Position numbers and translations under genes: made by a program | Notes under the pieces: generated by a model | Told to the model about the DNA's origin: nothing | The model's input: the letters and a program-made list of their open reading frames with translations, nothing else | Databases searched by the model: none | Shown here: piece after piece, positions 1 to 10,717 of the stretch | Layout of the letters: each line of letters starts with the position of its first letter | Position numbering within the stretch: the first letter of the stretch is position 1 | DNA from: an uncultured Chromatiaceae bacterium | Lineage (GTDB): Bacteria; Pseudomonadota; Gammaproteobacteria; Chromatiales; Chromatiaceae | NCBI GenBank assembly: GCA_964583605.1 | Contig: CAZOWL010000006.1 | Span: 14,976-78,975 of the forward strand | Length of the DNA stretch: 64,000 nt | Reading direction: 5' to 3'

Positions 1-70
1 TTGGTACGCCGGCTATGGCGGTCCGGCGGGCGATCCCAGAGGGGCTTGGCAACAAGGAGGTGCCCAAGGG

Positions 71-541
71 ATGGGCGGGCCTTACGGTCATCCGCAAACG
101 GCGGAGCCCTATGGGCCGGCTTACAGCCACGATTATTGGTCGGCGCATCCTGCGTCGATGGGGTACCCTGGCGGCGCGCCATGGGGTGCTTCGCCCGGGT
201 ACTACGGCAGTCCGTACCCCTATCCCTACTCGGCCTACCCGCATGGACCGCAGGGGCCTGGGCAGGCCGGCGCGCACGCCCGTCATGGCGCCGGTATGGC
301 GGACCTGATGGAGGAGATCGCGAAGGGCGGAAACGGCCTATCCAGTCTCTCCAAGATGCTAAGTCTCGACGACTCGGAGTTCTGGAAGGGGGCTCTGGTG
401 GGAGCCGCGGCGGTCCTGTTACTGACGAACGAGTCAGTGCAGGAGGTGCTCTTCAAGACGGGTGCCCGAGCGAAGCAGGCCGTAAAGGCCGGCATCGACA
501 AGGCCAAGGGGACCAGCAGCGAGGCGCCGACCGATGAGTGA
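71..541 (+). CDS. Small Pro/Gly/Tyr-rich membrane protein (paralog of 1228-1656), first visible gene of the fez-like cluster
   Basis: ATG preceded by AAGGAGG. The N-terminal ~75 aa are almost only P/G/Y/S/A/H (GYPGGAPWGASPGYYGSPYPYPYSAYPHGPQGPG). The C-terminal part has one hydrophobic helix with the motif FWKGALVGAAAVLLLTNESVQ, shared with the 1228-1656 product. Confidence 0.7.
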   Translation: MGGPYGHPQTAEPYGPAYSHDYWSAHPASMGYPGGAPWGASPGYYGSPYPYPYSAYPHGPQGPGQAGAHARHGAGMADLMEEIAKGGNGLSSLSKMLSLDDSEFWKGALVGAAAVLLLTNESVQEVLFKTGARAKQAVKAGIDKAKGTSSEAPTDE

Positions 542-923
542 CCGATACGAATACCCAGTGCCCCATCAAGCCCTGGTGGCCTATCCCGCCGTGCCGCCGG
601 CGCCCGGCTATGCGGTGGCCGACAATTCTTGCAGCACGTTGGTGCGCCTGGCCACCGTCGGTGCCATCGTCGGTGGCTCGGCTGCCGCCGCCTCGAACCT
701 GGCGCGGATGCAGCGCGCTGAGATCACCGTGAATCAAGTGCTGGCCGACACGACCAAGACGGCTGTTTCGAGCGCACTCGCGACCGCGGTGGCCGGCGCT
801 GTCGCCGGCGCCGTAGCCGAGCAGGGACTGGTGCGGCTCGGGGTGATGTTTGCCACCGGTGCGGCCGTACTCTATGCGCTCGAGCGGCGCTCGGTGCGCA
901 AGGAGGACGAGACGGGTGTCTGA
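534..923 (+). CDS. MamC-like small two-TM membrane protein
   Basis: The ATG overlaps the previous stop (ATGAGTGA). Two Ala/Gly-rich hydrophobic segments are separated by a polar loop. It is collinear with my recollection of magnetosome MamC/Mms13 (VGG-AA-A-N...IT...DT-K...LATA...GLV...LG...YA). Confidence 0.65.
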   Translation: MSDRYEYPVPHQALVAYPAVPPAPGYAVADNSCSTLVRLATVGAIVGGSAAAASNLARMQRAEITVNQVLADTTKTAVSSALATAVAGAVAGAVAEQGLVRLGVMFATGAAVLYALERRSVRKEDETGV

Positions 924-1113
924 TCACCGCCAACGCCAGCGTCACGGCGCAACCAAGAATCTCGCCGAGGGCATCGGCGGGGCGATCGTCGGGAGCGCCC
1001 TGGTCCTGCTTCTGCGGCAGCTGCTGCGGTCACGTGGGCAGAAGAGCGAGCCGAAGTCTGGACACCATGATGAGCCCTTGTCGAGCCCCCCGGCCGAGCA
1101 AGGACCCGCATGA
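916..1113 (+). CDS. Small single-TM protein (65 aa)
   Basis: In-frame GTG at 916 lies 9 nt after AGGAGGA (901-907) and overlaps the upstream stop (GTGTCTGA). One hydrophobic helix (GIGGAIVGSALVLLLRQLL) is followed by a charged tail. The track ORF 850-1113 is the same frame with an earlier, unsupported start. Confidence 0.5.
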   Translation: MSDHRQRQRHGATKNLAEGIGGAIVGSALVLLLRQLLRSRGQKSEPKSGHHDEPLSSPPAEQGPA

Positions 1114-1227
1114 AGGGCGGTTCCGGCATTGCCGTCGCGGCAGTCGGCCCGAACAGGCGCTGGCGCGCCGAGGAGGTCGCCCGGCGTATCGGCTTACCAT
1201 CTGACGCAACGCTACCAGGAGAGAACC

Positions 1228-1656
1228 TTGAGCAGTCATTACTTGCCGCACCCCTATTCTGGCTCCACGCCGTTTGATCCGAGGCCGATGGGCCAAGCTG
1301 GGTATGCCCCGGGTCACCCGAGTTACGGCTACCCCCAGCCGGGTGCGGGGTGGTATGGGGCGTCGCAGCCAGGACAGTATCCCGGCTATCATCAGTCGCA
1401 ATGGGCCTACCCCGCACGCGGGTCGGCCCCGTTCTTCAATTTTGCCAACGATCGCTTCGTCAAAGGGCTCTTGATCGGCGCCGCCGCGACCTACTTGGTG
1501 ACCAATGAGAGCGTCCAGCGTGCGCTGATCAAAGGGGTCGTGAAGACCTGGTCGATGCTGCAGGGCGGTGTCGAGGAGATCAGGGAGCGCTTCCACGACG
1601 CGGAAGCCGAGCTGCACCATGATTCCGGGCGCCGTGGTGCACCGAAGGATGACTAG
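1228..1656 (+). CDS. Small Pro/Gly/Tyr-rich membrane protein (paralog of 71-541)
   Basis: In-frame TTG at 1228 lies 5 nt after AGGAGAG. The N-terminus is P/G/Y-rich (GYAPGHPSYGYPQPGAGWYGASQPGQYPGY). It has the conserved helix FVKGLLIGAAATYLVTNESVQ. Confidence 0.65.
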   Translation: MSSHYLPHPYSGSTPFDPRPMGQAGYAPGHPSYGYPQPGAGWYGASQPGQYPGYHQSQWAYPARGSAPFFNFANDRFVKGLLIGAAATYLVTNESVQRALIKGVVKTWSMLQGGVEEIRERFHDAEAELHHDSGRRGAPKDD

Positions 1657-1793: not shown

Positions 1794-3914
1794 TTGTCGG
1801 TTCCCGGCTACCAGATTTTGCACGAGCTTCCCGGCCGCCTGCGGTTGCGGGTCCCAGCTCTTGGGCAACCCGGCTTCGCCGCATCGTCCGTTGAGGCTTG
1901 GTTCGATCACATCGCGGGTGTGGAAGGCGTGCGCGTCAACGGGCCAGCGCGCAGCCTGGTCGTCGACTACAGACCCGATCGGGTCTCGCGCGCCGAGCTC
2001 CTGCGCCGGCTCGAGGCCTACAAGCCGCCCGTAACGTCTGGCGCTGCGGCCCTCGACATCACGGATGCCGAGGTCACACCCTTGGCGCGCGCGATCCTGA
2101 CGCTGGTGATCTTGCCGTTCCTGCCGCGGCCGGCTCAGCATGTGGCGACGCTGATCAACATCGGCGGCACACTCCTCAAAGGGCTGGATACCCTGATCCA
2201 TCGCGGCATCAAGGTCGAGGTCCTCGATGCCGTGGCCGTGGGGCTATCGGCGGGCCGTGGCAAGCTCTACACCGCCAATGTCACGGATTTGCTGCTCACC
2301 ACGGGGACCTATCTGGAGCAGCGTACCGAGCGGCAGTCCGATCGCCTTTTGCGCCGCCTGCTGCGTCCCGAGCCGGTATCGGCCTGGGTCGAGCGCGATG
2401 GCGAGCTGGTGCAGGTGGCCGGCGACGCGGTCTGCGAAGGCGAGGTCGTGGTCGTCGGCGCCGGCGAGACGGTTCCGGTCGACGGGCGTGTCGTCGACGG
2501 CGTGGCGCTCGTCAACCAGGCCGCCGTCACGGGTGAGGATGTCCCCGTGGCCAAAGAGGCCCCGCGCCGCGTGATCTCAGGCTCGGTCCTCGTCGAGGGA
2601 CGGCTGCGGATCGAGGCGATTCAAGTCGGCGAGGAGACGACAACGGCGCGCGTGGCGCGCTTCATCCAAGAATCGCTGGCCAAGCAGTCAGCAACCCAGC
2701 GAACGGCCGACGAGCTGGCCGAGAAGCGCGTCTATGTCACGCTCGGCACGGGGGCATTGGTCTACGGCCTCACGCGGGATCTAACGCGCCTGCAGTCGGT
2801 CTTTCTCGTCGATTACTCGTGCGCATTGAAGCTTGGCACCCCCGTTGCATTTAAGGCGGGGCTGTATCAGGCCGCGCGCCACGGCATCCTGATCAAGGGT
2901 GGCGAGGCAATGGAGCACCTGGCAGGGGTCGATACGCTGATCTTCGACAAGACTGGCACCCTGACCCACAGCGAGCTGGCTGTCAGCGATGTGGTGCTGC
3001 TCGACGGGCAAGGCACCGAGTCGGAGGCAGATCTGCTGGCCTTGGTCGCCTCCGTCGAAGAGCACGCCAGCCACCCGGTGGCGCGCGCCGTGGTCGAGGC
3101 GGCCAAGGAGCGGGATCTCCAGCACATCTCCCACGGCGAGGTCGATTACCTCGTGGCCCATGGCCTCTCGGCCGAGATCCGGGCTGGGCGCATCGTCATC
3201 GGCAGCCGTCACTACCTCGAAGAGCATGCCGGCGTTCGGTTCGCCCGCTATGAGGGCGAGATCCGGCGGCTAGAGGAGGCCGGCAAGACACTTCTCTTCG
3301 TGGGCGACGAGCGCGGCCCGCTGGGGTTGATTGCATTGCGCGATACGCTCCGCGAGGAGGCGCCGGACACGCTGACTCGGCTGCGGTCGCTCGGCATCGA
3401 ACGATTGATCATGATCTCTGGGGATCGCCGCGAGAAGGCCGAGGCGCTGGGCGCCGAGCTCGGTTTCGATCGGGTCTTCGCCGAGATCGAGCCCGAGGGC
3501 AAGGCCGAGCTGATCCGGCGCTATCAGCAGGAAGGTCGCCGGGTGGGATTCGTTGGCGACGGCATCAACGATGGCCCCGCGCTAGTCGTCGCCGACGTCG
3601 GGATCGCGATGCCGCGTGGTGCCGATATCGCTCGCGCAACGGCCGATATCGTCCTGATGGATGATCGGCTCGGCGGGGTCGCCGACGCCCGCGAGGTCGC
3701 CGCCGGCACGATGGGCTTGATCCGCAACAACTTCAACCTGGCGGTCGGCGTCAACAGCGGGATCTTGGTTGGAGCCGTGCTCGGCTGGTTGTCGCCGGTC
3801 GCCAGTGCGCTGTTGCATAACGGCACGACGATCGGGATCCTACTCAATGCGCTGCGGGGCGTGCGCATCGGCGACGGCGCGGCCGCACCGACCGATGGCT
3901 TGTCCGAGAACTGA
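1794..3914 (+). CDS. Heavy-metal (P1B-type) P-type ATPase, P1B-6-like (FezB-like), with SCA transmembrane motif
   Basis: Motifs TGE (AAVTGEDVP), DKTGTLT and GDGINDGPAL are present. The TM metal-site motif is DYSCALKLGTP instead of CPC/SPC, and a late TM carries LHNGTT. The N-terminal ~75 aa look HMA-like (LPGRLRLRV...VEGVRVN) but contain no Cys. TTG start. Confidence 0.9.
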   Translation: MSVPGYQILHELPGRLRLRVPALGQPGFAASSVEAWFDHIAGVEGVRVNGPARSLVVDYRPDRVSRAELLRRLEAYKPPVTSGAAALDITDAEVTPLARAILTLVILPFLPRPAQHVATLINIGGTLLKGLDTLIHRGIKVEVLDAVAVGLSAGRGKLYTANVTDLLLTTGTYLEQRTERQSDRLLRRLLRPEPVSAWVERDGELVQVAGDAVCEGEVVVVGAGETVPVDGRVVDGVALVNQAAVTGEDVPVAKEAPRRVISGSVLVEGRLRIEAIQVGEETTTARVARFIQESLAKQSATQRTADELAEKRVYVTLGTGALVYGLTRDLTRLQSVFLVDYSCALKLGTPVAFKAGLYQAARHGILIKGGEAMEHLAGVDTLIFDKTGTLTHSELAVSDVVLLDGQGTESEADLLALVASVEEHASHPVARAVVEAAKERDLQHISHGEVDYLVAHGLSAEIRAGRIVIGSRHYLEEHAGVRFARYEGEIRRLEEAGKTLLFVGDERGPLGLIALRDTLREEAPDTLTRLRSLGIERLIMISGDRREKAEALGAELGFDRVFAEIEPEGKAELIRRYQQEGRRVGFVGDGINDGPALVVADVGIAMPRGADIARATADIVLMDDRLGGVADAREVAAGTMGLIRNNFNLAVGVNSGILVGAVLGWLSPVASALLHNGTTIGILLNALRGVRIGDGAAAPTDGLSEN

Positions 3915-5861: not shown

Positions 5862-5926
5862 ATCGTTCCCTTACCCCCACCATTCTCCCAAATGGCGAGG
5901 GCGCGAACGTGCTTTGCGAATTTCAT
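5862..5926 (+). repeat. Partial, degenerate copy of the MITE-like repeat (second hairpin and tail only)
   Basis: ATCGTTCCCTTACCCCCACCATTCTCCCAAATGGCGAGGGCGCGAACGTGCTTTGCGAATTTCAT aligns with the 3' half of the repeat consensus. Confidence 0.7.
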
Positions 5927-6445
5927 CCTGGGCTCATCTGTGCTCTCTGGAATGGAAAGCTGCCGCCCGGGCTTCGCGCGCAGGGCTAAGAGCGTTTGCG
6001 CGAATAGGTCGTATTTATATTACATTTAGCTTTTGTTGTAAAGGCGGCTCCCTGTACCATCTTGGGCACATAGCGTAGGAAGCCGTGCACAAGACGTGTG
6101 GTGCGTTTGGTGCTTAGGCGACAGCCAAACCCTCGCTGGCCGGATAGGGGGCGCAGACTATCCGGGCCGCATGACGGCCGGGCGGACAAAGCCATCGACC
6201 CTGCGTTGGTGCGCCATCGACACGACGCGGCACACTGTGGCCGGCCAGAGGCGGGAGCGGTCCAGGGGGAAGGAGCAGGACGAAGATCAGATTCGGCTTC
6301 AGGCCACTGGAGCGGCCAGACCACGGGGACGGCTCAATGAAGCCGCGAGCGCCTGGGGGCTGCAACGAGGCGAGCACTGCTTCGCAGCGCGTCGCCCGCC
6401 CGCGCCTGGCCAGTGAGGCCAGCGCGTGGGCAGGTCGGCGGCAGG

Positions 6446-7888
6446 TCAGGCCGGTTGCTCGAAGTGTCGTGACCATTGGCCGATCATGGCCCGGATGTGT
6501 GCTCCGTGTCTTTCGAGCAACGAGCCGGAGACGATGGTGGCGACACCGAGAAGGACGAGTGCGGTCCAGCCGCCGATCGTGAAGTCGGCCAGCGCGGCGT
6601 GGGCCATGACCCCGAGGCCGCTCAACGCGCCAATCAGGCCGACCGCGAAGACGCCGCGGCGCTTCGTGCCAAAACCGTAGGCCAGAATCAGCAGGCCGAC
6701 ACCCAGGCATACCAGGGCGTTGAAGAAGCCGCCCCAGAGCGACAGGTTGACGAGCATCGTCAGGCCGGCCGTCAACGCCGCAGCCCCCTCGTATCGACCC
6801 GAGCGCGCCCCGCTCTGGCGGGCCATATCCAGCAGGAGCAGCGTGAAGAGGCCCATCGCGAGCGGCAGGATCGCGACATCGGCCAACCCATCGAGCTCGG
6901 CTAGGGTCGCGAAGAGGAACAGCGTGCTCGATCCCGCGAGCAGCACAGCCATGGCCTCGAGCAGGCCTGACCGAGGCCTCTCTGGGCCGTGGTCGTGCGC
7001 GCTGAGCGCCAGCCTGGCCGCCAGGTAACCGACTAGCGACAGCGTCGCAAAGAACAGCGTGTCCGGGGCCCAGAGCCAGAGGCTGCGGCCGGCGATCACG
7101 AGGAGGGGGAGTGTCAGCACTGCACGGGCGAAGCGCCCCTCAGGCGTCGCCAGCGTCGCTTCGCCGCGACGCAGCCTCAGGATGCCCAACGCGAGCGCGC
7201 CGGCCAAGACCAGCAGCACGGCAGAGATGACCAGGTCATCCCGCGTTGGCAGCAGTAGCGCCGCATTGGCGAGCAGATAGAGCCCCGTCAGCGCGCCGGC
7301 CGATCGCCTGGCCATCACCAAAAACCCGATCCAGATCGCTCCGGCCAGGATCGCCGTCGCGGCGCCGGTCAGCATCAGCGCCGGGCCGAAGGCCAGAGTG
7401 TGGTCCAGGCTCGGTTGCCACAACGTGGCAGCGGCATCGAGCGTCCGCGGGGCATCCCAGGTCAGGTGCGGATAGGTCACGCCGCCGAGGAAGGCGAAGC
7501 TGACCGGCACCGCGGCCAGCGCCAGCGCTATGAAGAGTCGTGCACCCTTGGCCTCGCGCAGGACATGGCCGCTGGCGAAGCCCGCCATCGTCAGGACGAC
7601 CGTGTGGATGAGTAATAGAAGGCACCGCGTCAGGTCATCCCCGTCGCGCCAGCCCTGGAAGAGATACATGATGAAGGCCGCGACGATGACCAGGGCCCCG
7701 AGCCCATGGAGCAGGCGTGACAGCGTCAGGCCGTTAGGTCGATGCGCAGCCGATGCACTACTGCCCTCGGCCCCATCTTCACTGGGTGGTCGAGACGGCT
7801 CTCCCGGAAGACCGCGCGGCCAGTCCGCGTCGAGATCGAGCTTCAGTTCCAGTTCGCGGACATCGGCGGGTATCGCGTTAGTGCTCAT
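6446..7888 (-). CDS. Polytopic inner-membrane protein of unknown function (~11-12 TM helices)
   Basis: 480 aa with a charged N-terminus followed by a continuous series of hydrophobic helices. Its start overlaps the stop of the PspA-like gene by 11 nt. Confidence 0.75.
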   Translation of the reverse strand: MSTNAIPADVRELELKLDLDADWPRGLPGEPSRPPSEDGAEGSSASAAHRPNGLTLSRLLHGLGALVIVAAFIMYLFQGWRDGDDLTRCLLLLIHTVVLTMAGFASGHVLREAKGARLFIALALAAVPVSFAFLGGVTYPHLTWDAPRTLDAAATLWQPSLDHTLAFGPALMLTGAATAILAGAIWIGFLVMARRSAGALTGLYLLANAALLLPTRDDLVISAVLLVLAGALALGILRLRRGEATLATPEGRFARAVLTLPLLVIAGRSLWLWAPDTLFFATLSLVGYLAARLALSAHDHGPERPRSGLLEAMAVLLAGSSTLFLFATLAELDGLADVAILPLAMGLFTLLLLDMARQSGARSGRYEGAAALTAGLTMLVNLSLWGGFFNALVCLGVGLLILAYGFGTKRRGVFAVGLIGALSGLGVMAHAALADFTIGGWTALVLLGVATIVSGSLLERHGAHIRAMIGQWSRHFEQPA

Positions 7889-8555
7889 CGCAACCTCCTC
7901 CTGCCTGGCCCGGGGCCTGCTGTGCGCGGGCCTTGAGGGCCGCTAGCTCAGCGGACAGCCCGGCTCGTTCCTCATCGGCGACGAATGCGGACTCGAACGG
8001 GTCGCGCTGCGGTGTCGAGTCGCCGTCGAGCTCTGCCTCGACGACGTGCATCTCCCAGCGCTCGAAGGTCTCGTCCAGGTCTGGCTCGACGCCGGCGGCT
8101 GCGACGCGTACCTGGGCGGCCGCCTCCGCCGTCGCCTCGCGGCTGCGCAGCATGTGTCGGCGGTGCTCGAGTGTCAGAAGGCGTTGACGCAACGACTCAA
8201 CCTCGCGTGCCAGCTGCGTCTCGGTCTCGACGTGGTGACGCAGCGTCGCCTTGAGCGACTGCGCCTGCTCGCCTGCCTGCTTGTGCCGTCGTAGGCACTC
8301 CAGCGCCGTATCCTCCTGCGCGCTGTTGACGGCCCTGTCGCGCCACGCCGAGGACGCGGCGTCCAGCTCGGCGATCCGCGAGCGCAGCCGCTCGCCGTGC
8401 TGTCGCAATCGCATCAGTCGGACGCTGGCCCTAGCGTAGGCGCGGCGTCTCTCGCGGATGCCTGCCTCGACGACCGCATCATGGTTCTCGAGCTCTCCGA
8501 CCAACCTGTCGACCCGGGCCGACAGTGACGTCGTAATACGTTTCAGAAATGCCAC
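7878..8555 (-). CDS. PspA/IM30-family protein
   Basis: Coiled-coil protein collinear with PspA (AFLKRITTSLSARVDRLVGELENHDAVVEAGIRE ... FERWEMHVVEAELD). GTG start at 8555 lies 5 nt after AGGAGGAG; the track ATG at 8600 has no RBS. Confidence 0.8.
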   Translation of the reverse strand: MAFLKRITTSLSARVDRLVGELENHDAVVEAGIRERRRAYARASVRLMRLRQHGERLRSRIAELDAASSAWRDRAVNSAQEDTALECLRRHKQAGEQAQSLKATLRHHVETETQLAREVESLRQRLLTLEHRRHMLRSREATAEAAAQVRVAAAGVEPDLDETFERWEMHVVEAELDGDSTPQRDPFESAFVADEERAGLSAELAALKARAQQAPGQAGGGCDEH

Positions 8556-8595
8556 CGAATGCTCCTCCTGCTTCAGAGTTTGGCATCCCATCAAC

Positions 8596-8611
8596 ATCAA
8601 AGCTCATGCCA
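8596..8611 (-). promoter_or_regulatory. Candidate sigma-54 promoter upstream of the PspA-like gene
   Basis: The minus strand reads TGGCATGAGCTTTGAT. The -24 GG is at the right place, but the -12 element is TTGA rather than TTGC. It lies ~40 nt upstream of the GTG start. Confidence 0.3.
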
Positions 8612-8824
8612 TCCTGAGCATCATAGGAGTTTTTCCTTTCTTGTTAGGGCGGTAGGCGCTCTGACGGCCGGCCATGATGGCCATTAGATCCCAATAGGAT
8701 ATGCATTCAATGCATGCGGCCGTGCATAAATTGAATGTCCACTCGCCTCATCTCTGAGCCAGCTCCCACTCCACGGCCGTTCGCACGAGCTCCGCGTCGC
8801 AGGGCCTAGGGATGGGCTCCTGCG

Positions 8825-9292
8825 ATGCCGGAGCCCGCCCTGCGCGAGCTGGCGTCAAGGATGCTCGCGGAGCTCCAGGACAAGAGTCTGGACCAGTTCC
8901 GGCGGCTGGCCGAGGGACTGCCAGTGATCGCTTGGGCGGCGCGACGCAACGGGACGCGCGAGCTCTTCAATCACCATTACGCCGACTTCCTCGGGCTGGA
9001 CCCAGGCCAGGCCACGGGACGTGAAGGGGCATGCCGCCCCTTCATCCATCGCGACGATGTCGGATTTTATCTCACGCTCTTCAAGCTCTCGATCCGCCGG
9101 AAGAGGCCCTTTAAGGCCGAGTTTCGCGGACTGAGGACTGACGGTCGGTGGCGATGGATCAAGAGCGCTGGGCCCCCTTGTTGGGGATCAGACGGCGAGT
9201 ATCTGGGCCATGTTGGCGCCTCGCTCGATGTCACCGAGCGCGAGGAGCCCGTCCGTGAGCCAACTTGCTTCGAAGCGATTATGCCGCGTTGA
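8825..9292 (+). CDS. Stand-alone PAS-domain protein
   Basis: PAS/PAC-like pattern: LPVIAWAARRNGTRELFNHHYADFLGLDP...FIHRDDV...EFRGLRTDGRWRWIKSAGPP...GEYLGHVGASLDVTERE. Confidence 0.7.
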   Translation: MPEPALRELASRMLAELQDKSLDQFRRLAEGLPVIAWAARRNGTRELFNHHYADFLGLDPGQATGREGACRPFIHRDDVGFYLTLFKLSIRRKRPFKAEFRGLRTDGRWRWIKSAGPPCWGSDGEYLGHVGASLDVTEREEPVREPTCFEAIMPR

Positions 9293-9602
9293 CCTTTGAG
9301 CCCCCGCGACACGGCGGAGAGTCGGGCAACGCCTCTCCCCGAGCCTGCCACTCGTCGGGCGTCCAGGCGTGGATCGCCAGGGCATGCAGTCCGTGCTGGA
9401 GCTCGCTGCCGAGTAGACCGTGAACCAGACGGTGACGGGCGATGAGTGGCTGGTCGCCGAACGCGGAGCTAACGATCAAGACCTTGAAATGCGACTCGGC
9501 CCCCGCCGGCACATTGTGGCGTGAGCTCTCATCGATCACATGGAGGTGCGTCGGAGACAGTCTGGAAGCCAGGGTCTCTTCGATGCGTGTCTTACGGCTC
9601 AT
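9279..9602 (-). CDS. bolA: BolA-family protein
   Basis: Near-collinear with E. coli BolA: HLHVIDESSRHNVPAGAESHFKVLIVSSAFGDQPLIARHRLVHGLL...LHALAIHAWTPDEW...SPPCRGG. Confidence 0.9.
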   Translation of the reverse strand: MSRKTRIEETLASRLSPTHLHVIDESSRHNVPAGAESHFKVLIVSSAFGDQPLIARHRLVHGLLGSELQHGLHALAIHAWTPDEWQARGEALPDSPPCRGGSKVNAA

Positions 9603-9898: not shown

Positions 9899-10048
9899 AG
9901 TAAGTTGAGGCTGAAGGTCAGGTATGACAAGCGCCGTCACGCGCCGCCGCTGTCGTTCCTATCAAAGTCGCGTGGAGCCTGCTTCGTATTTCCCTCGCGC
10001 TCTGCCGGGGGGCGGAGTCAGGGAAGCTTCGATGGCGAGCAGCAGCTT

Positions 10049-10717
10049 TCATGATTCGGGGTGGCGCTGCTGCTCGCCATCGACGTCAGGCGAGCGAAGC
10101 AGCGCCGCGGTGGGGCCGAAGCCCAGCTCGGTCGCCCATGCGGCGGCCGTGTGCCCCGAGAAATCCTTCAGCGTGCCGTCGGCGCCGTGGCGCAATAGGG
10201 CCGCGACCGTCTCGCGGTGACCCAGCTTCGCCGCCCAGATCAACGCGGTTACGCCTTGCGTACTCTCCTGATGATCCACGTGGGCACCCTGGGCGAGCAG
10301 ATAGTCAACCACCTCGGCATGGTTGTTGGACGCCGCTAACATCATCGCTGTGTACCCGCCCGAGTCCTCCGCGTCGATCGCCGCACCGGCCGCGACCAGC
10401 CGTTTGACGACCTCGAGATGGCCGTTGAGCGCCGCCTTCATCAAGGGTGTCCATCGGCAGGCGTCACGGATGTCCGGCTGAGCGGCCCGGTTGCTCAACA
10501 GCGCATCCAAGGCCGAGATGTCGCCGCGCTCGGCAGCGACTAGCAGGGGCGGCGTAGGCGGGGCTAGGTCGAGTGCATCCGCGGGGTCATCACCGCTGCA
10601 ACCGATAGCAATGGGGAGGCTGAGGATGGGCCCGGCCAGAAGTCGCCACACCGGCGCTCGGGAACGCCTTCCAGGGGCTGACTCTGTGCTCGAAGAGCTG
10701 ACACTGGGCCGAGACAT
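10049..10717 (-). CDS. Ankyrin-repeat lipoprotein
   Basis: Lipobox-like LSLPIAIGC after a basic N-region. At least four ankyrin repeats (TPLMKAALNGHLEVVKRLVAAGAAIDA, YTAMMLAASNNHAEVVDYLLAQGAHVD, TALIWAAKLGHRETVAALLRHGAD...). Start placed at the internal Met (MSRPSV). Confidence 0.8.
   Translation of the reverse strand: MSRPSVSSSSTESAPGRRSRAPVWRLLAGPILSLPIAIGCSGDDPADALDLAPPTPPLLVAAERGDISALDALLSNRAAQPDIRDACRWTPLMKAALNGHLEVVKRLVAAGAAIDAEDSGGYTAMMLAASNNHAEVVDYLLAQGAHVDHQESTQGVTALIWAAKLGHRETVAALLRHGADGTLKDFSGHTAAAWATELGFGPTAALLRSPDVDGEQQRHPES

What the first reader, a model, noticed from the sequence alone, without database searches (positions are those of the whole stretch)
534..923. MamC-like (magnetosome-membrane-protein-like) gene inside the fez-like cluster
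The 129-aa product has two Ala/Gly-rich TM helices flanking a polar loop. I aligned it by eye to my recollection of magnetosome protein MamC/Mms13 of Magnetospirillum. The match is collinear over ~78 residues, with roughly 30 identities and a single 1-residue gap. Shared positions:

- G-x-[IV]-V-G-G-x-A-A-x-A-x-N
- I-T
- D-T-x-K
- L-A-T-A
- A-x-A-V
- G-L-V
- L-G
- G-x-A
- Y-A

MamC is normally regarded as a magnetosome-specific magnetite-interacting protein. A homolog embedded in an iron-organelle (ferrosome-type) operon would link the two organelle systems, provided the organism is not magnetotactic; I see no other mam genes in this window. Caveat: the reference sequence is from memory, and Ala/Gly-rich TM segments inflate apparent identity.
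Basis: inference. Interest (0 to 1): 0.7.

Follow-up and report, generated by a model that had tools for sequence, protein, structure and literature searches.

The report
MamC-family FezF-like ferrosome membrane gene
The small gene is a real relative of the magnetosome protein MamC, but it is the standard small membrane protein found in ferrosome (iron-storage organelle) gene clusters of many non-magnetic bacteria, so this copy is ordinary even though the family link between the two iron organelles is little discussed.

Summary
The 129-aa ORF at 534..923(+) is real, and its resemblance to MamC is homology, not composition. NCBIfam MamC scores E 1.4e-12 over 80 collinear residues. A profile-profile comparison with bona fide MamC gives 98.7% probability. 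2,480 shuffled controls reach at most 9.5 bits, against 33-61 bits for the real sequences. The exact protein carries Pfam PF26373 'MamC'.

It is not MamC in the strict sense. It scores 47.8 bits against a cut-off of 100, lacks the KYAWDRG tail, and does not lie in a magnetosome cluster. It sits, translationally coupled on both sides, in a canonical fez (ferrosome) operon. That operon has a FezB P1B-6 ATPase (DYSCALK, HNGTT, HELPGRLRLRVP) and two GxxxG proteins.

It is 50% identical to Thimo_2896. Grant et al. already list that protein as conserved fez-cluster 'Group 4-5'. Group 4 also holds Sputcn32_3195, by elimination Shewanella's two-TM FezF. Family members lie beside fez ATPases in nine further independent loci.

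RefSeq already calls two purple-sulfur-bacterial orthologues 'MamC'. I found no paper that discusses the link. Verdict: observation confirmed, interpretation supported, but this is a new member of a known kind. Function (ferrosome-membrane subunit) is inferred.

The parts
1..541 (+). 3' part of the first fez-cluster gene, a GxxxG protein of 'Group 2-3' (FezA-like). The window start cuts it.
   Evidence: It contains EFWKGALVGAAAVL. Compare DFWKGALVGAAAVL of Group 2-3 in Supplementary Table 4 of the ferrosome preprint. The complete gene is 261 aa on the overlapping contig, L001 7603..8388. Its stop codon overlaps the next gene's ATG by 8 nt, ATGAGTGA.
534..923 (+). The finding: a 129-aa MamC-family (Pfam PF26373) small membrane protein. 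It is the FezF-like 'Group 4-5' component of the fez cluster.
   Evidence: NCBIfam MamC E 1.4e-12, 47.8 bits. Precomputed Pfam PF26373:MamC on this exact protein. 50% identity, E 5e-27, to Thimo_2896, which the preprint lists in Group 4-5. hhalign against MamC gives 98.7% probability. Shuffle control.
696..764 (+). Polar loop (residues 55-77, NLARMQRAEITVNQVLADTTKTA), equivalent to the magnetite-interacting loop of MamC.
   Evidence: It aligns to the MamC loop KN...EA.IDTGKE. Q68 aligns with MamC Glu66 and D72 with MamC Asp70 (with residue numbers corrected by reading the sequence; the roles of Glu66 and Asp70 are from PMC6584501). T73 and K75 lie in columns conserved across all subfamilies.
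916..1113 (+). Small conserved single-TM protein (65 aa, GTG start) with a GxxxG-type helix, HGATKNLAEGIGGAIVGSALVLLL.
   Evidence: Its start overlaps the MamC-like stop by 8 nt, GTGTCTGA. Homologous small ORFs lie at the same position in Thiorhodococcus fuscus (L003 10314..10556) and Thiobacillaceae (L004 10290..10634). Small genes are called at that position in Thioflavicoccus mobilis (61 aa) and Endothiovibrio (80 aa).
1228..1656 (+). GxxxG protein of 'Group 2-1' (142 aa from TTG 1228, which follows an AGGAGA ribosome-binding site).
   Evidence: It contains RFVKGLLIGAAATY, the same string type as Group 2-1 entries such as Thivi_1333 and ThidrDRAFT_2750. The gene caller on L001 chose the same start (L001 9075). 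Sequence.
1794..3914 (+). FezB, a P1B-6-type heavy-metal P-type ATPase (706 aa).
   Evidence: Pfam E1-E2_ATPase, Hydrolase and HMA_2. TIGR01525 at 485.6 bits. Signature strings HELPGRLRLRVP (N-terminal R-rich motif), VDYSCALK (TM4) and HNGTT (TM6) can be read. They match the FezB table of the preprint, for example Thiorhodococcus drewsii with DYSCALK / HNGTT / HELPGRMRVRVQ.

Best explanation
ORF 534..923 encodes the FezF-like ('Group 4-5') small integral membrane protein of a ferrosome (fez) operon. It belongs to the wider Pfam MamC family, PF26373.

**Expression.** It is made together with its neighbours as one unit: 8-nt start/stop overlaps link it to both the upstream and the downstream gene.

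**Most likely role (inferred).** It inserts into the membrane that FezB loads with iron. There it acts as a structural or assembly subunit. Its Gly/Ala-rich small-xxx-small helices pack against themselves and against the other GxxxG Fez proteins. Its conserved polar loop (N55...Q68..D72-T73-x-K75) is displayed at one membrane face. By analogy with MamC, that loop could contact the iron mineral or help set vesicle and mineral size.

**Relation to MamC.** In this reading, bona fide MamC is one specialised, compact branch of the same family. That branch gained a more acidic loop (EA.IDTGKE) and a KYAWDRG tail in magnetosome gene clusters.

**Shown:** homology to MamC, membership of the fez-cluster family, operon coupling, and recurrent linkage to fez ATPases.
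**Inferred:** ferrosome-membrane location, helix packing, orientation of the loop, and any contact with mineral.
For: **Homology to MamC**
- NCBIfam MamC E 1.4e-12.
- Pfam PF26373:MamC on this exact protein.
- A profile built only from the window's family recovers curated-threshold MamC proteins at E of about 1e-6 to 1e-7 in a library of 1.84 billion proteins. These are P0133, P0135, P0147, P0145 and P0165, at 117-135 bits to NF038051.
- hhalign probability 98.7%.
- Shuffles reach at most 9.5 bits against 33-61 bits for the real sequences.

**The cluster is fez**
- FezB motifs.
- GxxxG groups 2-3 and 2-1.
- An HMA_2/R-rich protein and a Fur gene lie just upstream.

**Same family as a catalogued Fez component**
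- 50% identity to Thimo_2896, listed in Group 4-5.
- The Thioflavicoccus mobilis locus has the same gene order.
- Group 4 also contains Sputcn32_3195 of the genetically studied Shewanella putrefaciens fez operon.

**Recurrent linkage.** PF26373 genes lie next to fez-type ATPases or feoAB in these loci:
- Endothiovibrio (L002)
- Thiorhodococcus fuscus (L003)
- Thiobacillaceae (L004)
- L006
- L007/L008 and L009/L010, two copies each
- L012
- L014
- L015/L016, an unnamed NCBI draft assembly whose gene order and 102-aa size fit the preprint's Group 4-4

**Positive control.** A bona fide MamC (P0133) instead sits beside genes with MamS/MamX, magnetochrome (MCR) and MFS/ferric-reductase domains.

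**Conservation pattern**
- Small residues in the helices: G43, G47, G48, A51, A52, A83, T84, G88, A89, A91 and G109. Y114 is also conserved.
- Loop T73 and K/R75 are conserved in all subfamilies.

**Coupling.** The overlaps ATGAGTGA and GTGTCTGA.
Against: - There is no experimental datum for this subfamily. The ferrosome proteomics in Desulfovibrio magneticus enriched only FezA, FezB and FezC, and I have no evidence that D. magneticus encodes a Group 4 protein.
- The acidic pair implicated in magnetite binding by MamC is only half kept: Q68 and D72 in the window protein. In the window's clade the Glu66 column is acidic in 18 of 58 sequences and the Asp70 column in 30 of 58.
- The loop of the fez-type clade is net basic (K+R 3.2 against D+E 2.5), while the N- and C-terminal tails are acidic. 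By the positive-inside rule this points to a cytoplasmic rather than a lumenal loop, so mineral contact is doubtful.
- The AlphaFold model has low confidence (pLDDT 68, pTM 0.32). It leaves two or three membrane helices open.
- I could not obtain the Shewanella FezF sequence. Its membership of the same family rests on the preprint's similarity network.
Confidence: 0.75

Rival explanations
1. It is an ordinary mamC paralogue of a magnetotactic bacterium. The host carries a magnetosome island elsewhere, and this gene serves magnetosomes.
For: Only this 64-kb window plus about 7.8 kb upstream were seen, out of a genome of unknown size. Magnetotactic Gammaproteobacteria exist (my own knowledge). 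RefSeq labels two orthologues 'magnetosome protein MamC'.
Against: - The score to the curated MamC model is 47.8 bits against a cut-off of 100. True MamC proteins score 117-135 bits.
- The gene is translationally coupled inside a fez operon.
- There are no mam genes in the window.
- Orthologues in the same cluster occur in the complete genome of Thioflavicoccus mobilis and in Endothiovibrio and Thiorhodococcus. The Thiocystis violascens protein from a 5.0-Mb contig matches Thivi_1335 of the preprint's fez cluster. To my knowledge these species are not magnetotactic.
- The RefSeq-named 'MamC' proteins themselves score only 41-44 bits.
Confidence: 0.04
2. The MamC resemblance is a compositional artefact of Ala/Gly-rich transmembrane segments, and the protein belongs to an unrelated small membrane-protein family.
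For: The sequence is 25-30% Ala plus Gly-rich. The mean bias term in the HMM scores is high, about 12 bits. The local Pfam copy gave only sub-threshold hits to DUF6232 and P22_gp7.
Against: - 2,480 composition-preserving shuffles, including shuffles confined within each helix or loop segment, and 31 reversed sequences never exceed 9.5 bits. The real sequences score 33-61 bits.
- The match is gapless over 87 columns and includes the polar loop motif.
- Reciprocal profile searches connect the two groups at E values down to 1e-9, with intermediates on a continuum of 49-99 bits.
- Pfam places them in one family.
Confidence: 0.02
3. The protein is a bona fide Fez component, but its job has nothing to do with mineral. 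It is purely a membrane-curvature or packing element, or a small regulatory or stabilising subunit of the FezB pump (like small subunits of other P-type ATPases). In this reading the loop faces the cytoplasm.
For: - The loop is the most K/R-rich extramembrane segment, with 3.2 basic residues against 0.8 in the N-terminus and 1.5 in the C-tail.
- The strongest conservation is in small-xxx-small helix motifs.
- A subfamily-specific Q97-G98...R101 turn is nearly invariant: R101 in 55 of 58 sequences.
- The gene nearly always sits within a few genes of the ATPase.
- One metagenomic gene fuses it to a GxxxG Fez protein (P0081).
- Some relatives carry long Lys-rich C-tails, which would have to be cytoplasmic.
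Against: - Loop residues T73 and K/R75, and an acidic or amide residue at positions 68 and 72, are conserved from MamC to the fez types. For MamC the loop is reported to interact with magnetite (PMC6584501; PMC4306944).
- Nothing here measures topology.
Confidence: 0.35

Closest known systems
Fez cluster 'Group 4' proteins of Grant et al. (10.1101/2020.01.10.902569). Subgroup 4-5: Thimo_2896, Thivi_1335, Alvin_1680, Marpu_0946, ThisiDRAFT_1851. [quoted passage not shown]
   Same: - 50% identity to Thimo_2896.
- Same length class, 115-129 aa.
- Same slot between the GxxxG 2-3 and GxxxG 2-1 genes, upstream of fezB.
- Same Pfam family, including the Group 4-4-like cluster L015.
   Different: Nothing material. 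The N-terminal 30 residues are variable and Pro/Tyr-rich. The window's host is an unnamed, 65.7% GC organism. The preprint's main text does not mention MamC (0 occurrences of 'Mam').
MamC (Mms13), the magnetosome membrane protein of the mamGFDC/mamCD operon (NCBIfam NF038051).
   Same: - Collinear core: G-A-[IV]-V-G-G-x-A-A-x-A-x-N helix, polar loop with D-T-x-K, [LV]-A-T-A helix, and a conserved Tyr near the end.
- Same size class.
- Both are encoded in gene clusters for a membrane-bounded iron-mineral organelle.
   Different: - It scores 47.8 bits against the 100-bit equivalog cut-off.
- MamC Glu66 is Gln here, and the MamC loop is net acidic (4.4 acidic, 3.0 basic) while the fez-type loop is net basic.
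- It lacks KYAWDRG (LYALERR here) and has a clade-specific Q97-G98..R101 turn.
- Genomic context is fezB and GxxxG genes, rather than mam genes as seen for P0133.
- Ferrosomes hold iron-phosphate mineral, not magnetite (abstract of PMC13307979).
GxxxG-motif Fez proteins (FezA, FezE, FezG; Group 2 of Grant et al.).
   Same: They are small hydrophobic proteins of the same operon with Gly/Ala small-xxx-small helices. One metagenomic protein (P0081) fuses a MamC-like half to a Group 2-1-like half.
   Different: There is no detectable sequence relationship. Neither NCBIfam MamC nor any other model hits the window's Group 2-1 protein or the small TM protein. Those proteins have one hydrophobic segment, whereas this one has two or three.

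Membership tests
Pfam PF26373 'MamC' (broad family) | Significant match to the family HMM. | tested here: met
   The precomputed Pfam assignment PF26373.1 / 'PF26373:MamC' is attached to this exact sequence, P0001. The local Pfam copy lacks the model, so the score itself was not recomputed. An independent NCBIfam MamC HMM gives E 1.4e-12.
Pfam PF26373 'MamC' (broad family) | Collinear core (helix, polar loop, helix or helices) shared with bona fide MamC beyond what composition explains. | tested here: met
   hhalign aligns 87 gapless columns with probability 98.7%. The shuffle control gives a maximum of 9.5 bits against 53.8 for the window protein.
MamC sensu stricto (NCBIfam NF038051 equivalog) | Score at or above the curated cut-off of 100 bits. 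| tested here: not met
   47.8 bits. Bona fide members score 117-135 bits.
MamC sensu stricto (NCBIfam NF038051 equivalog) | Encoded within a magnetosome gene cluster (mamGFDC/mamCD or next to other mam genes). | tested here: not met
   The neighbours are fez genes. There are no mam genes among the 35 window ORFs scanned with Pfam. As a contrast, P0133 lies next to genes with MamS/MamX and magnetochrome domains. The rest of the genome was not available.
MamC sensu stricto (NCBIfam NF038051 equivalog) | Acidic loop pair Glu66/Asp70 implicated in magnetite interaction (PMC6584501). | tested here: inconclusive
   The Asp70 equivalent is kept (D72). The Glu66 equivalent is Gln (Q68).
MamC sensu stricto (NCBIfam NF038051 equivalog) | Location in the magnetosome membrane and an effect on magnetite crystals or vesicle size. 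| not testable with these tools
   This needs cell biology.
Fez-cluster Group 4 / FezF-like proteins (Grant et al. preprint) | Sequence similarity to listed members. | tested here: met
   P0253 is Thimo_2896 (named by NCBI). It has 50% identity, E 5e-27 pairwise and E 2.7e-34 to the profile. Thimo_2896 is listed in Group 4-5.
Fez-cluster Group 4 / FezF-like proteins (Grant et al. preprint) | Encoded within about ten genes of a FezB (P1B-6) ATPase in a conserved cluster. | tested here: met
   It lies 871 bp upstream of fezB on the same strand, with the same gene order as Thioflavicoccus mobilis, Thiorhodococcus fuscus, Endothiovibrio and Thiobacillaceae.
Fez-cluster Group 4 / FezF-like proteins (Grant et al. 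preprint) | Direct similarity to the genetically studied Shewanella FezF (Sputcn32_3195, Group 4-2). | not tested
   The sequence could not be retrieved. The link rests on the preprint's similarity network, which places subgroups 4-2 and 4-5 in one group.
Fez-cluster Group 4 / FezF-like proteins (Grant et al. preprint) | Association with ferrosomes, or a requirement for their formation. | not testable with these tools
   This needs ferrosome purification or deletion mutants.
FezB (P1B-6 ATPase), for the neighbouring gene 1794..3914 | TM4 D[YF]SCA[LIV]K, TM6 HNxxT, and an N-terminal R-rich motif H.[LI]PGR.R.R. | tested here: met
   VDYSCALK, HNGTT and HELPGRLRLRVP are read in the translation. 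They match Supplementary Table entries for FezB homologues. There is also a weak HMA_2 hit.

The most novel reading that the evidence does not exclude
MamC, the abundant magnetosome membrane protein usually described in a magnetosome-only context, would be a specialised offshoot of a much larger and more widespread family of ferrosome membrane proteins (FezF / Group 4). The two iron-mineral organelles would then share an inherited membrane component. FezF-type loops would play the same mineral- or vesicle-sizing role in ferrosomes that the MamC loop plays in magnetosomes. The databases record the shared family, but I found no paper that states or tests this.
Probability: 0.3. Interest if true: 0.6.

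Novelty: new member of a known kind. Interest (0 to 1): 0.38.

Why it matters
**For this window it matters little.** The gene is one more copy of a component already tabulated for fez clusters, and Pfam already files it under MamC.

**The family-level picture is more useful.**
- At least nine further independent fez-type loci carry PF26373 genes, across Chromatiales-type, Thiobacillaceae, an unnamed NCBI draft resembling the preprint's Vibrio-type clusters, and unidentified metagenome lineages.
- Curated-threshold MamC forms a single compact clade of 12 among 186 tips.

This gives ferrosome research a concrete candidate for a mineral- or membrane-facing subunit. A large body of MamC loop biochemistry could be transferred to it. 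It gives magnetosome research a plausible evolutionary source for MamC.

It also flags an annotation problem. RefSeq entries named 'magnetosome protein MamC' in purple sulfur bacteria score 41-44 bits against a cut-off of 100. They should not be read as evidence of magnetotaxis.

Tried and rejected
- **Local Pfam scan.** The local copy has no PF26373 model. It gave only sub-threshold DUF6232 and P22_gp7 hits, which I set aside.
- **Genome-contig scan with the family alignment.** Only two loci were confirmed, so there is no systematic taxonomic census.
- **tblastn against plasmids.** No match.
- **PDB sequence search with the family profile.** Only a chance hit, E 1.6. Because the AlphaFold model is low-confidence (pLDDT 68), I did not run a fold search.
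- **E. coli-type Fur box upstream (L001).** No match at 3 or fewer mismatches. AT-rich Fur-box-like stretches were seen by eye but not evaluated.
- **Literature.** 'MamC-like' returned 0 papers. 'ferrosome' plus 'MamC' returned 4 papers, none making the link. 'PF26373' returned 0.
- **My recollected AMB-1 and MSR-1 MamC sequences.** I used them only to locate MamC-like entries among the hits. All claims rest on database proteins validated with NF038051.
- **NJ tree.** It has no support values and arbitrary rooting, so I treat it as weak evidence only.
Full report
**1. The observation**

The ORF at 534..923(+) exists. It starts with ATG, encodes 129 aa, and has the codon-position GC pattern of real genes in this 65.7% GC window.

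Its product has four parts:
- a variable Pro/Tyr-rich N-terminus (residues 1-34);
- a Gly/Ala-rich hydrophobic helix (35-54);
- a polar loop (55-77, NLARMQRAEITVNQVLADTTKTA);
- a 39-residue hydrophobic stretch (78-116), followed by a charged tail.

An AlphaFold2 model built on 31 homologues has modest confidence (pLDDT 68, pTM 0.32). It shows helices 31-61, 66-97 and 99-127, so the second hydrophobic stretch may be a hairpin of two helices broken at Q97-G98. 'Two TM helices' is therefore approximately right, but three are possible.

**2. Is the MamC resemblance real?**

Yes. Five lines of evidence agree.
- The curated NCBIfam model for MamC (NF038051) is the only meaningful hit: E 1.4e-12, 47.8 bits, residues 39-118 on profile positions 12-91 of 97.
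- The exact protein is in the public collection and carries the precomputed Pfam domain PF26373, which the tool names 'MamC'. The local Pfam copy lacks that model, which is why one search found nothing.
- A profile built only from 31 close relatives of the window protein was run against 1.84 billion representative proteins. It returned 203 hits at E of 1e-3 or better. Among them are proteins that pass NCBI's 100-bit MamC cut-off: P0133 (127 bits), P0135 (132), P0147 (135), P0145 (117) and P0165 (125). There is also a graded series of intermediates at 49-99 bits.
- Profile-profile comparison of the window's family with 11 MamC and near-MamC sequences gives 98.7% probability, E 3.3e-16, over 87 columns without a gap.
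Against an HMM of the bona fide MamC set, the real family scores 32.9-60.7 bits and the window protein 53.8. By contrast, 1,240 global shuffles, 1,240 shuffles confined within each helix or loop segment, and 31 reversed sequences never exceed 9.5 bits.

**3. The surroundings**

The cluster is a textbook fez (ferrosome) cluster.
- The 706-aa P-type ATPase at 1794..3914 carries HELPGRLRLRVP, VDYSCALK and HNGTT. These are the three signature strings that the ferrosome preprint (Grant et al., 10.1101/2020.01.10.902569) tabulates for FezB homologues. An example is Thiorhodococcus drewsii with DYSCALK / HNGTT / HELPGRMRVRVQ.
- The gene before the finding (..541) contains EFWKGALVGAAAVL, matching the preprint's GxxxG 'Group 2-3'. 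The window start cuts this gene; it is 261 aa on an overlapping contig.
- The gene at 1228..1656 contains RFVKGLLIGAAATY, matching 'Group 2-1'.
- Between the finding and that gene lies a conserved 65-aa single-helix ORF (916..1113). It also appears in Thiorhodococcus fuscus and Thiobacillaceae, and small genes are called at that position in Thioflavicoccus and Endothiovibrio.
- The finding's start overlaps the upstream stop (ATGAGTGA), and its stop overlaps the downstream GTG start (GTGTCTGA). This indicates translational coupling within one operon.
- Just upstream of the window lie an HMA_2/R-rich protein and a Fur gene.
- The rest of the window is ordinary chromosome: prfA, hemA, prmC, prs, ispE, the L25 gene, mfd, purL, an RND efflux pump, an MCP and others. 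It has no mam genes.

**4. What the gene is**

The profile search with names returned P0253, 'hypothetical protein Thimo_2896 [Thioflavicoccus mobilis 8321]'. It is 50% identical to the window protein.

Thimo_2896 is listed in Supplementary Table 6 of the ferrosome preprint as Group 4-5 of the 'other conserved proteins' of fez clusters. The same subgroup holds Thivi_1335, Alvin_1680, Marpu_0946, ThisiDRAFT_1851 and a Thiocapsa protein. In the T. mobilis complete genome the order is:

HMA_2 - 284 aa (Group 2-3) - PF26373 protein - 61 aa - 148 aa - 70 aa - 707-aa ATPase - HMA_2 - HMA_2.

This is the same order as in the window.

Group 4 also contains Sputcn32_3195 (subgroup 4-2). This is the gene between the two GxxxG genes of the Shewanella putrefaciens fez operon. 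[quoted passage not shown]

So the window ORF is the Chromatiales-type representative of the FezF-like component. The family was already recognised as a conserved Fez protein, although the preprint's main text never mentions MamC.

**5. How general the link is**

Every PF26373 gene outside the strict MamC clade whose contig reached 5 kb or more lies in an iron-organelle-type cluster (the two other look-ups, L005 and L011, hit contigs under 2 kb):
- Endothiovibrio diazotrophicus;
- Thiorhodococcus fuscus;
- a Thiobacillaceae MAG, with feoAB next door;
- a feoA-feoA-feoB-feoC contig with two tandem PF26373 genes;
- two metagenomic lineages with two PF26373 genes each, beside one or two P-type ATPases, FeoA-like, DtxR and iron ABC transporter genes;
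- a contig with a Lys-rich-tailed member next to a 701-aa ATPase;
- an unnamed NCBI draft assembly whose gene order and 102-aa member size fit the preprint's Vibrio-type Group 4-4.

As a positive control, a bona fide MamC (P0133) lies next to genes with MamS/MamX, magnetochrome (MCR) and MFS/ferric-reductase domains, and feoAB.

BLAST clustering splits the family into four communities. In an unsupported NJ tree, the 11 MamC and near-MamC sequences plus one other form a single clade of 186 tips. That clade is sister to a 36-tip clade containing a fez-linked member.

**6. Same as, and different from, MamC**

Conserved across all subfamilies:
- the G-A-x-V-G-G..A-A-A-x-N helix;
- loop T73 and K/R75 (window numbering);
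- the A-T-A motif;
- small residues in the later helix;
- Tyr114.

Differences:
- The MamC residues reported to bind or template magnetite are Glu66 and Asp70 (PMC6584501). They correspond to Q68 and D72 here. In the window's clade these columns are acidic in 18/58 and 30/58 sequences, against 10/11 and 11/11 in MamC.
- The MamC loop is net acidic (4.4 acidic, 3.0 basic). The fez-type loop is net basic (2.5 against 3.3).
- The fez-type clade has its own nearly invariant Q97-G98..R101 turn and lacks MamC's KYAWDRG.
- In the fez-type clade the loop is the most K/R-rich extramembrane segment, while both tails are acidic. By the positive-inside rule this does not favour a lumenal loop.

**7. Mechanism**

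*Shown:* homology, operon membership, coupling, and recurrent linkage to FezB.

*Inferred:* the protein is an integral subunit of the ferrosome membrane, made stoichiometrically with the GxxxG proteins. Its small-xxx-small helices mediate packing, and its conserved loop is presented at one face. I put about 0.75 on 'Fez-complex/ferrosome-membrane structural subunit of the MamC family'.

Within that, I split roughly evenly between two versions:
- a MamC-like role, in which the loop contacts the mineral or helps size the vesicle (MamC background: PMC4306944);
- a mineral-independent role in packing, curvature or ATPase support, with a cytoplasmic loop.

**8. Novelty**

For this window, the gene is a new member of a known kind. 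The cluster type, the gene family (Group 4) and the Pfam assignment all exist already. RefSeq even names the Thiocystis violascens and Thiorhodococcus minor orthologues 'magnetosome protein MamC', although they score only 41-44 bits against the 100-bit cut-off.

I could not find any paper that states that ferrosome clusters encode MamC homologues or draws consequences from it. The library searched is incomplete, and the final journal version of the ferrosome paper was not examined.

**9. Limits**

- The host organism is unidentified, and its full genome was not available.
- The Shewanella FezF sequence was not retrieved.
- Topology and location are untested.
- The tree is weak.

Noticed in passing
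window 7878..8600 (-) and 6446..7888 (-): A PspA/IM30-family gene (Pfam E 1.3e-10) overlaps by 11 nt a 480-aa multi-pass membrane ORF with no Pfam hit. The pair lies about 2.5-4 kb downstream of fezB on the opposite strand. A membrane-remodelling (ESCRT-III-like) protein next to an organelle cluster may be coincidence or may be relevant.
   Followed up: partly
window 916..1113 (+): A conserved 65-aa single-helix ORF (HGATKNLAEGIGGAIVGSALVLLL) is translationally coupled to the MamC-like gene. Homologues lie at the same position in L003 and L004, and small genes are called there in L002 and L014. The gene caller on the overlapping Logan contig missed it and instead called an ORF in another frame (L001 8957..9124, equal to window 1110..1277). 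It has no family hit in NCBIfam.
   Followed up: partly
window 1..541 (+); L001 7603..8388: The window start cuts the first fez gene. The full product is 261 aa with a long Gly/Pro/Gln/Tyr-rich low-complexity N-terminal region ahead of the GxxxG helix. The ORF list's 71..541 start is an artefact of the window edge.
   Followed up: yes
L001 6119..7242 and intergenic 5900..6110, 7243..7602 (upstream of the window): An R-rich HMA_2 protein (223 aa, HQIPGRMRWHVP) and a Fur-family regulator precede the operon. AT-rich, Fur-box-like stretches sit near putative promoters (for example TTGACAcgtaaaGATAACGATTAGC). No match to the E. coli Fur consensus was found at 3 or fewer mismatches.
   Followed up: partly
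L005 330..1088 (protein P0081): A 252-aa metagenomic protein joins a MamC-like N-terminal half to a C-terminal half almost identical in motif to the window's Group 2-1 GxxxG protein (FSNDRFLKGLLIGAAATYPLTNESVQ...). This is either a natural fusion or a merged gene call. Either way it supports functional linkage of the two proteins.
   Followed up: no
P0120, P0121, P0124, P0152 and others; L004 10290..10634: Many MamC-family members of the community nearest to true MamC carry long Lys/Ala/Pro-rich, histone-H1-like C-terminal tails, and so does the small TM protein of the Thiobacillaceae cluster. There is a weak NCBIfam Hc2 hit for P0121. These tails might bind polyanions such as polyphosphate or nucleic acid at the organelle surface.
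   Followed up: no
P0268 (Thiocystis violascens), P0269 (Thiorhodococcus minor), P0183 (Gammaproteobacteria bacterium): Public records name these fez-type proteins 'magnetosome protein MamC'. They score only 41-44 bits against the 100-bit cut-off of the current NF038051.2 model. This is a likely over-annotation that could be misread as a sign of magnetotaxis.
   Followed up: yes
L006 4711..5439; L007 2123..2563 and 10001..10465; L009 638..1087 and 8710..9357: Some lineages carry two MamC-family genes per locus, either in tandem after feoAAB-feoC or spread over a roughly 10-kb region with the P-type ATPase, a DUF5661 gene, a FeoA-like 241-aa gene, DtxR and an iron ABC transporter. L007 holds two P-type ATPases. 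These larger clusters were not analysed further.
   Followed up: no
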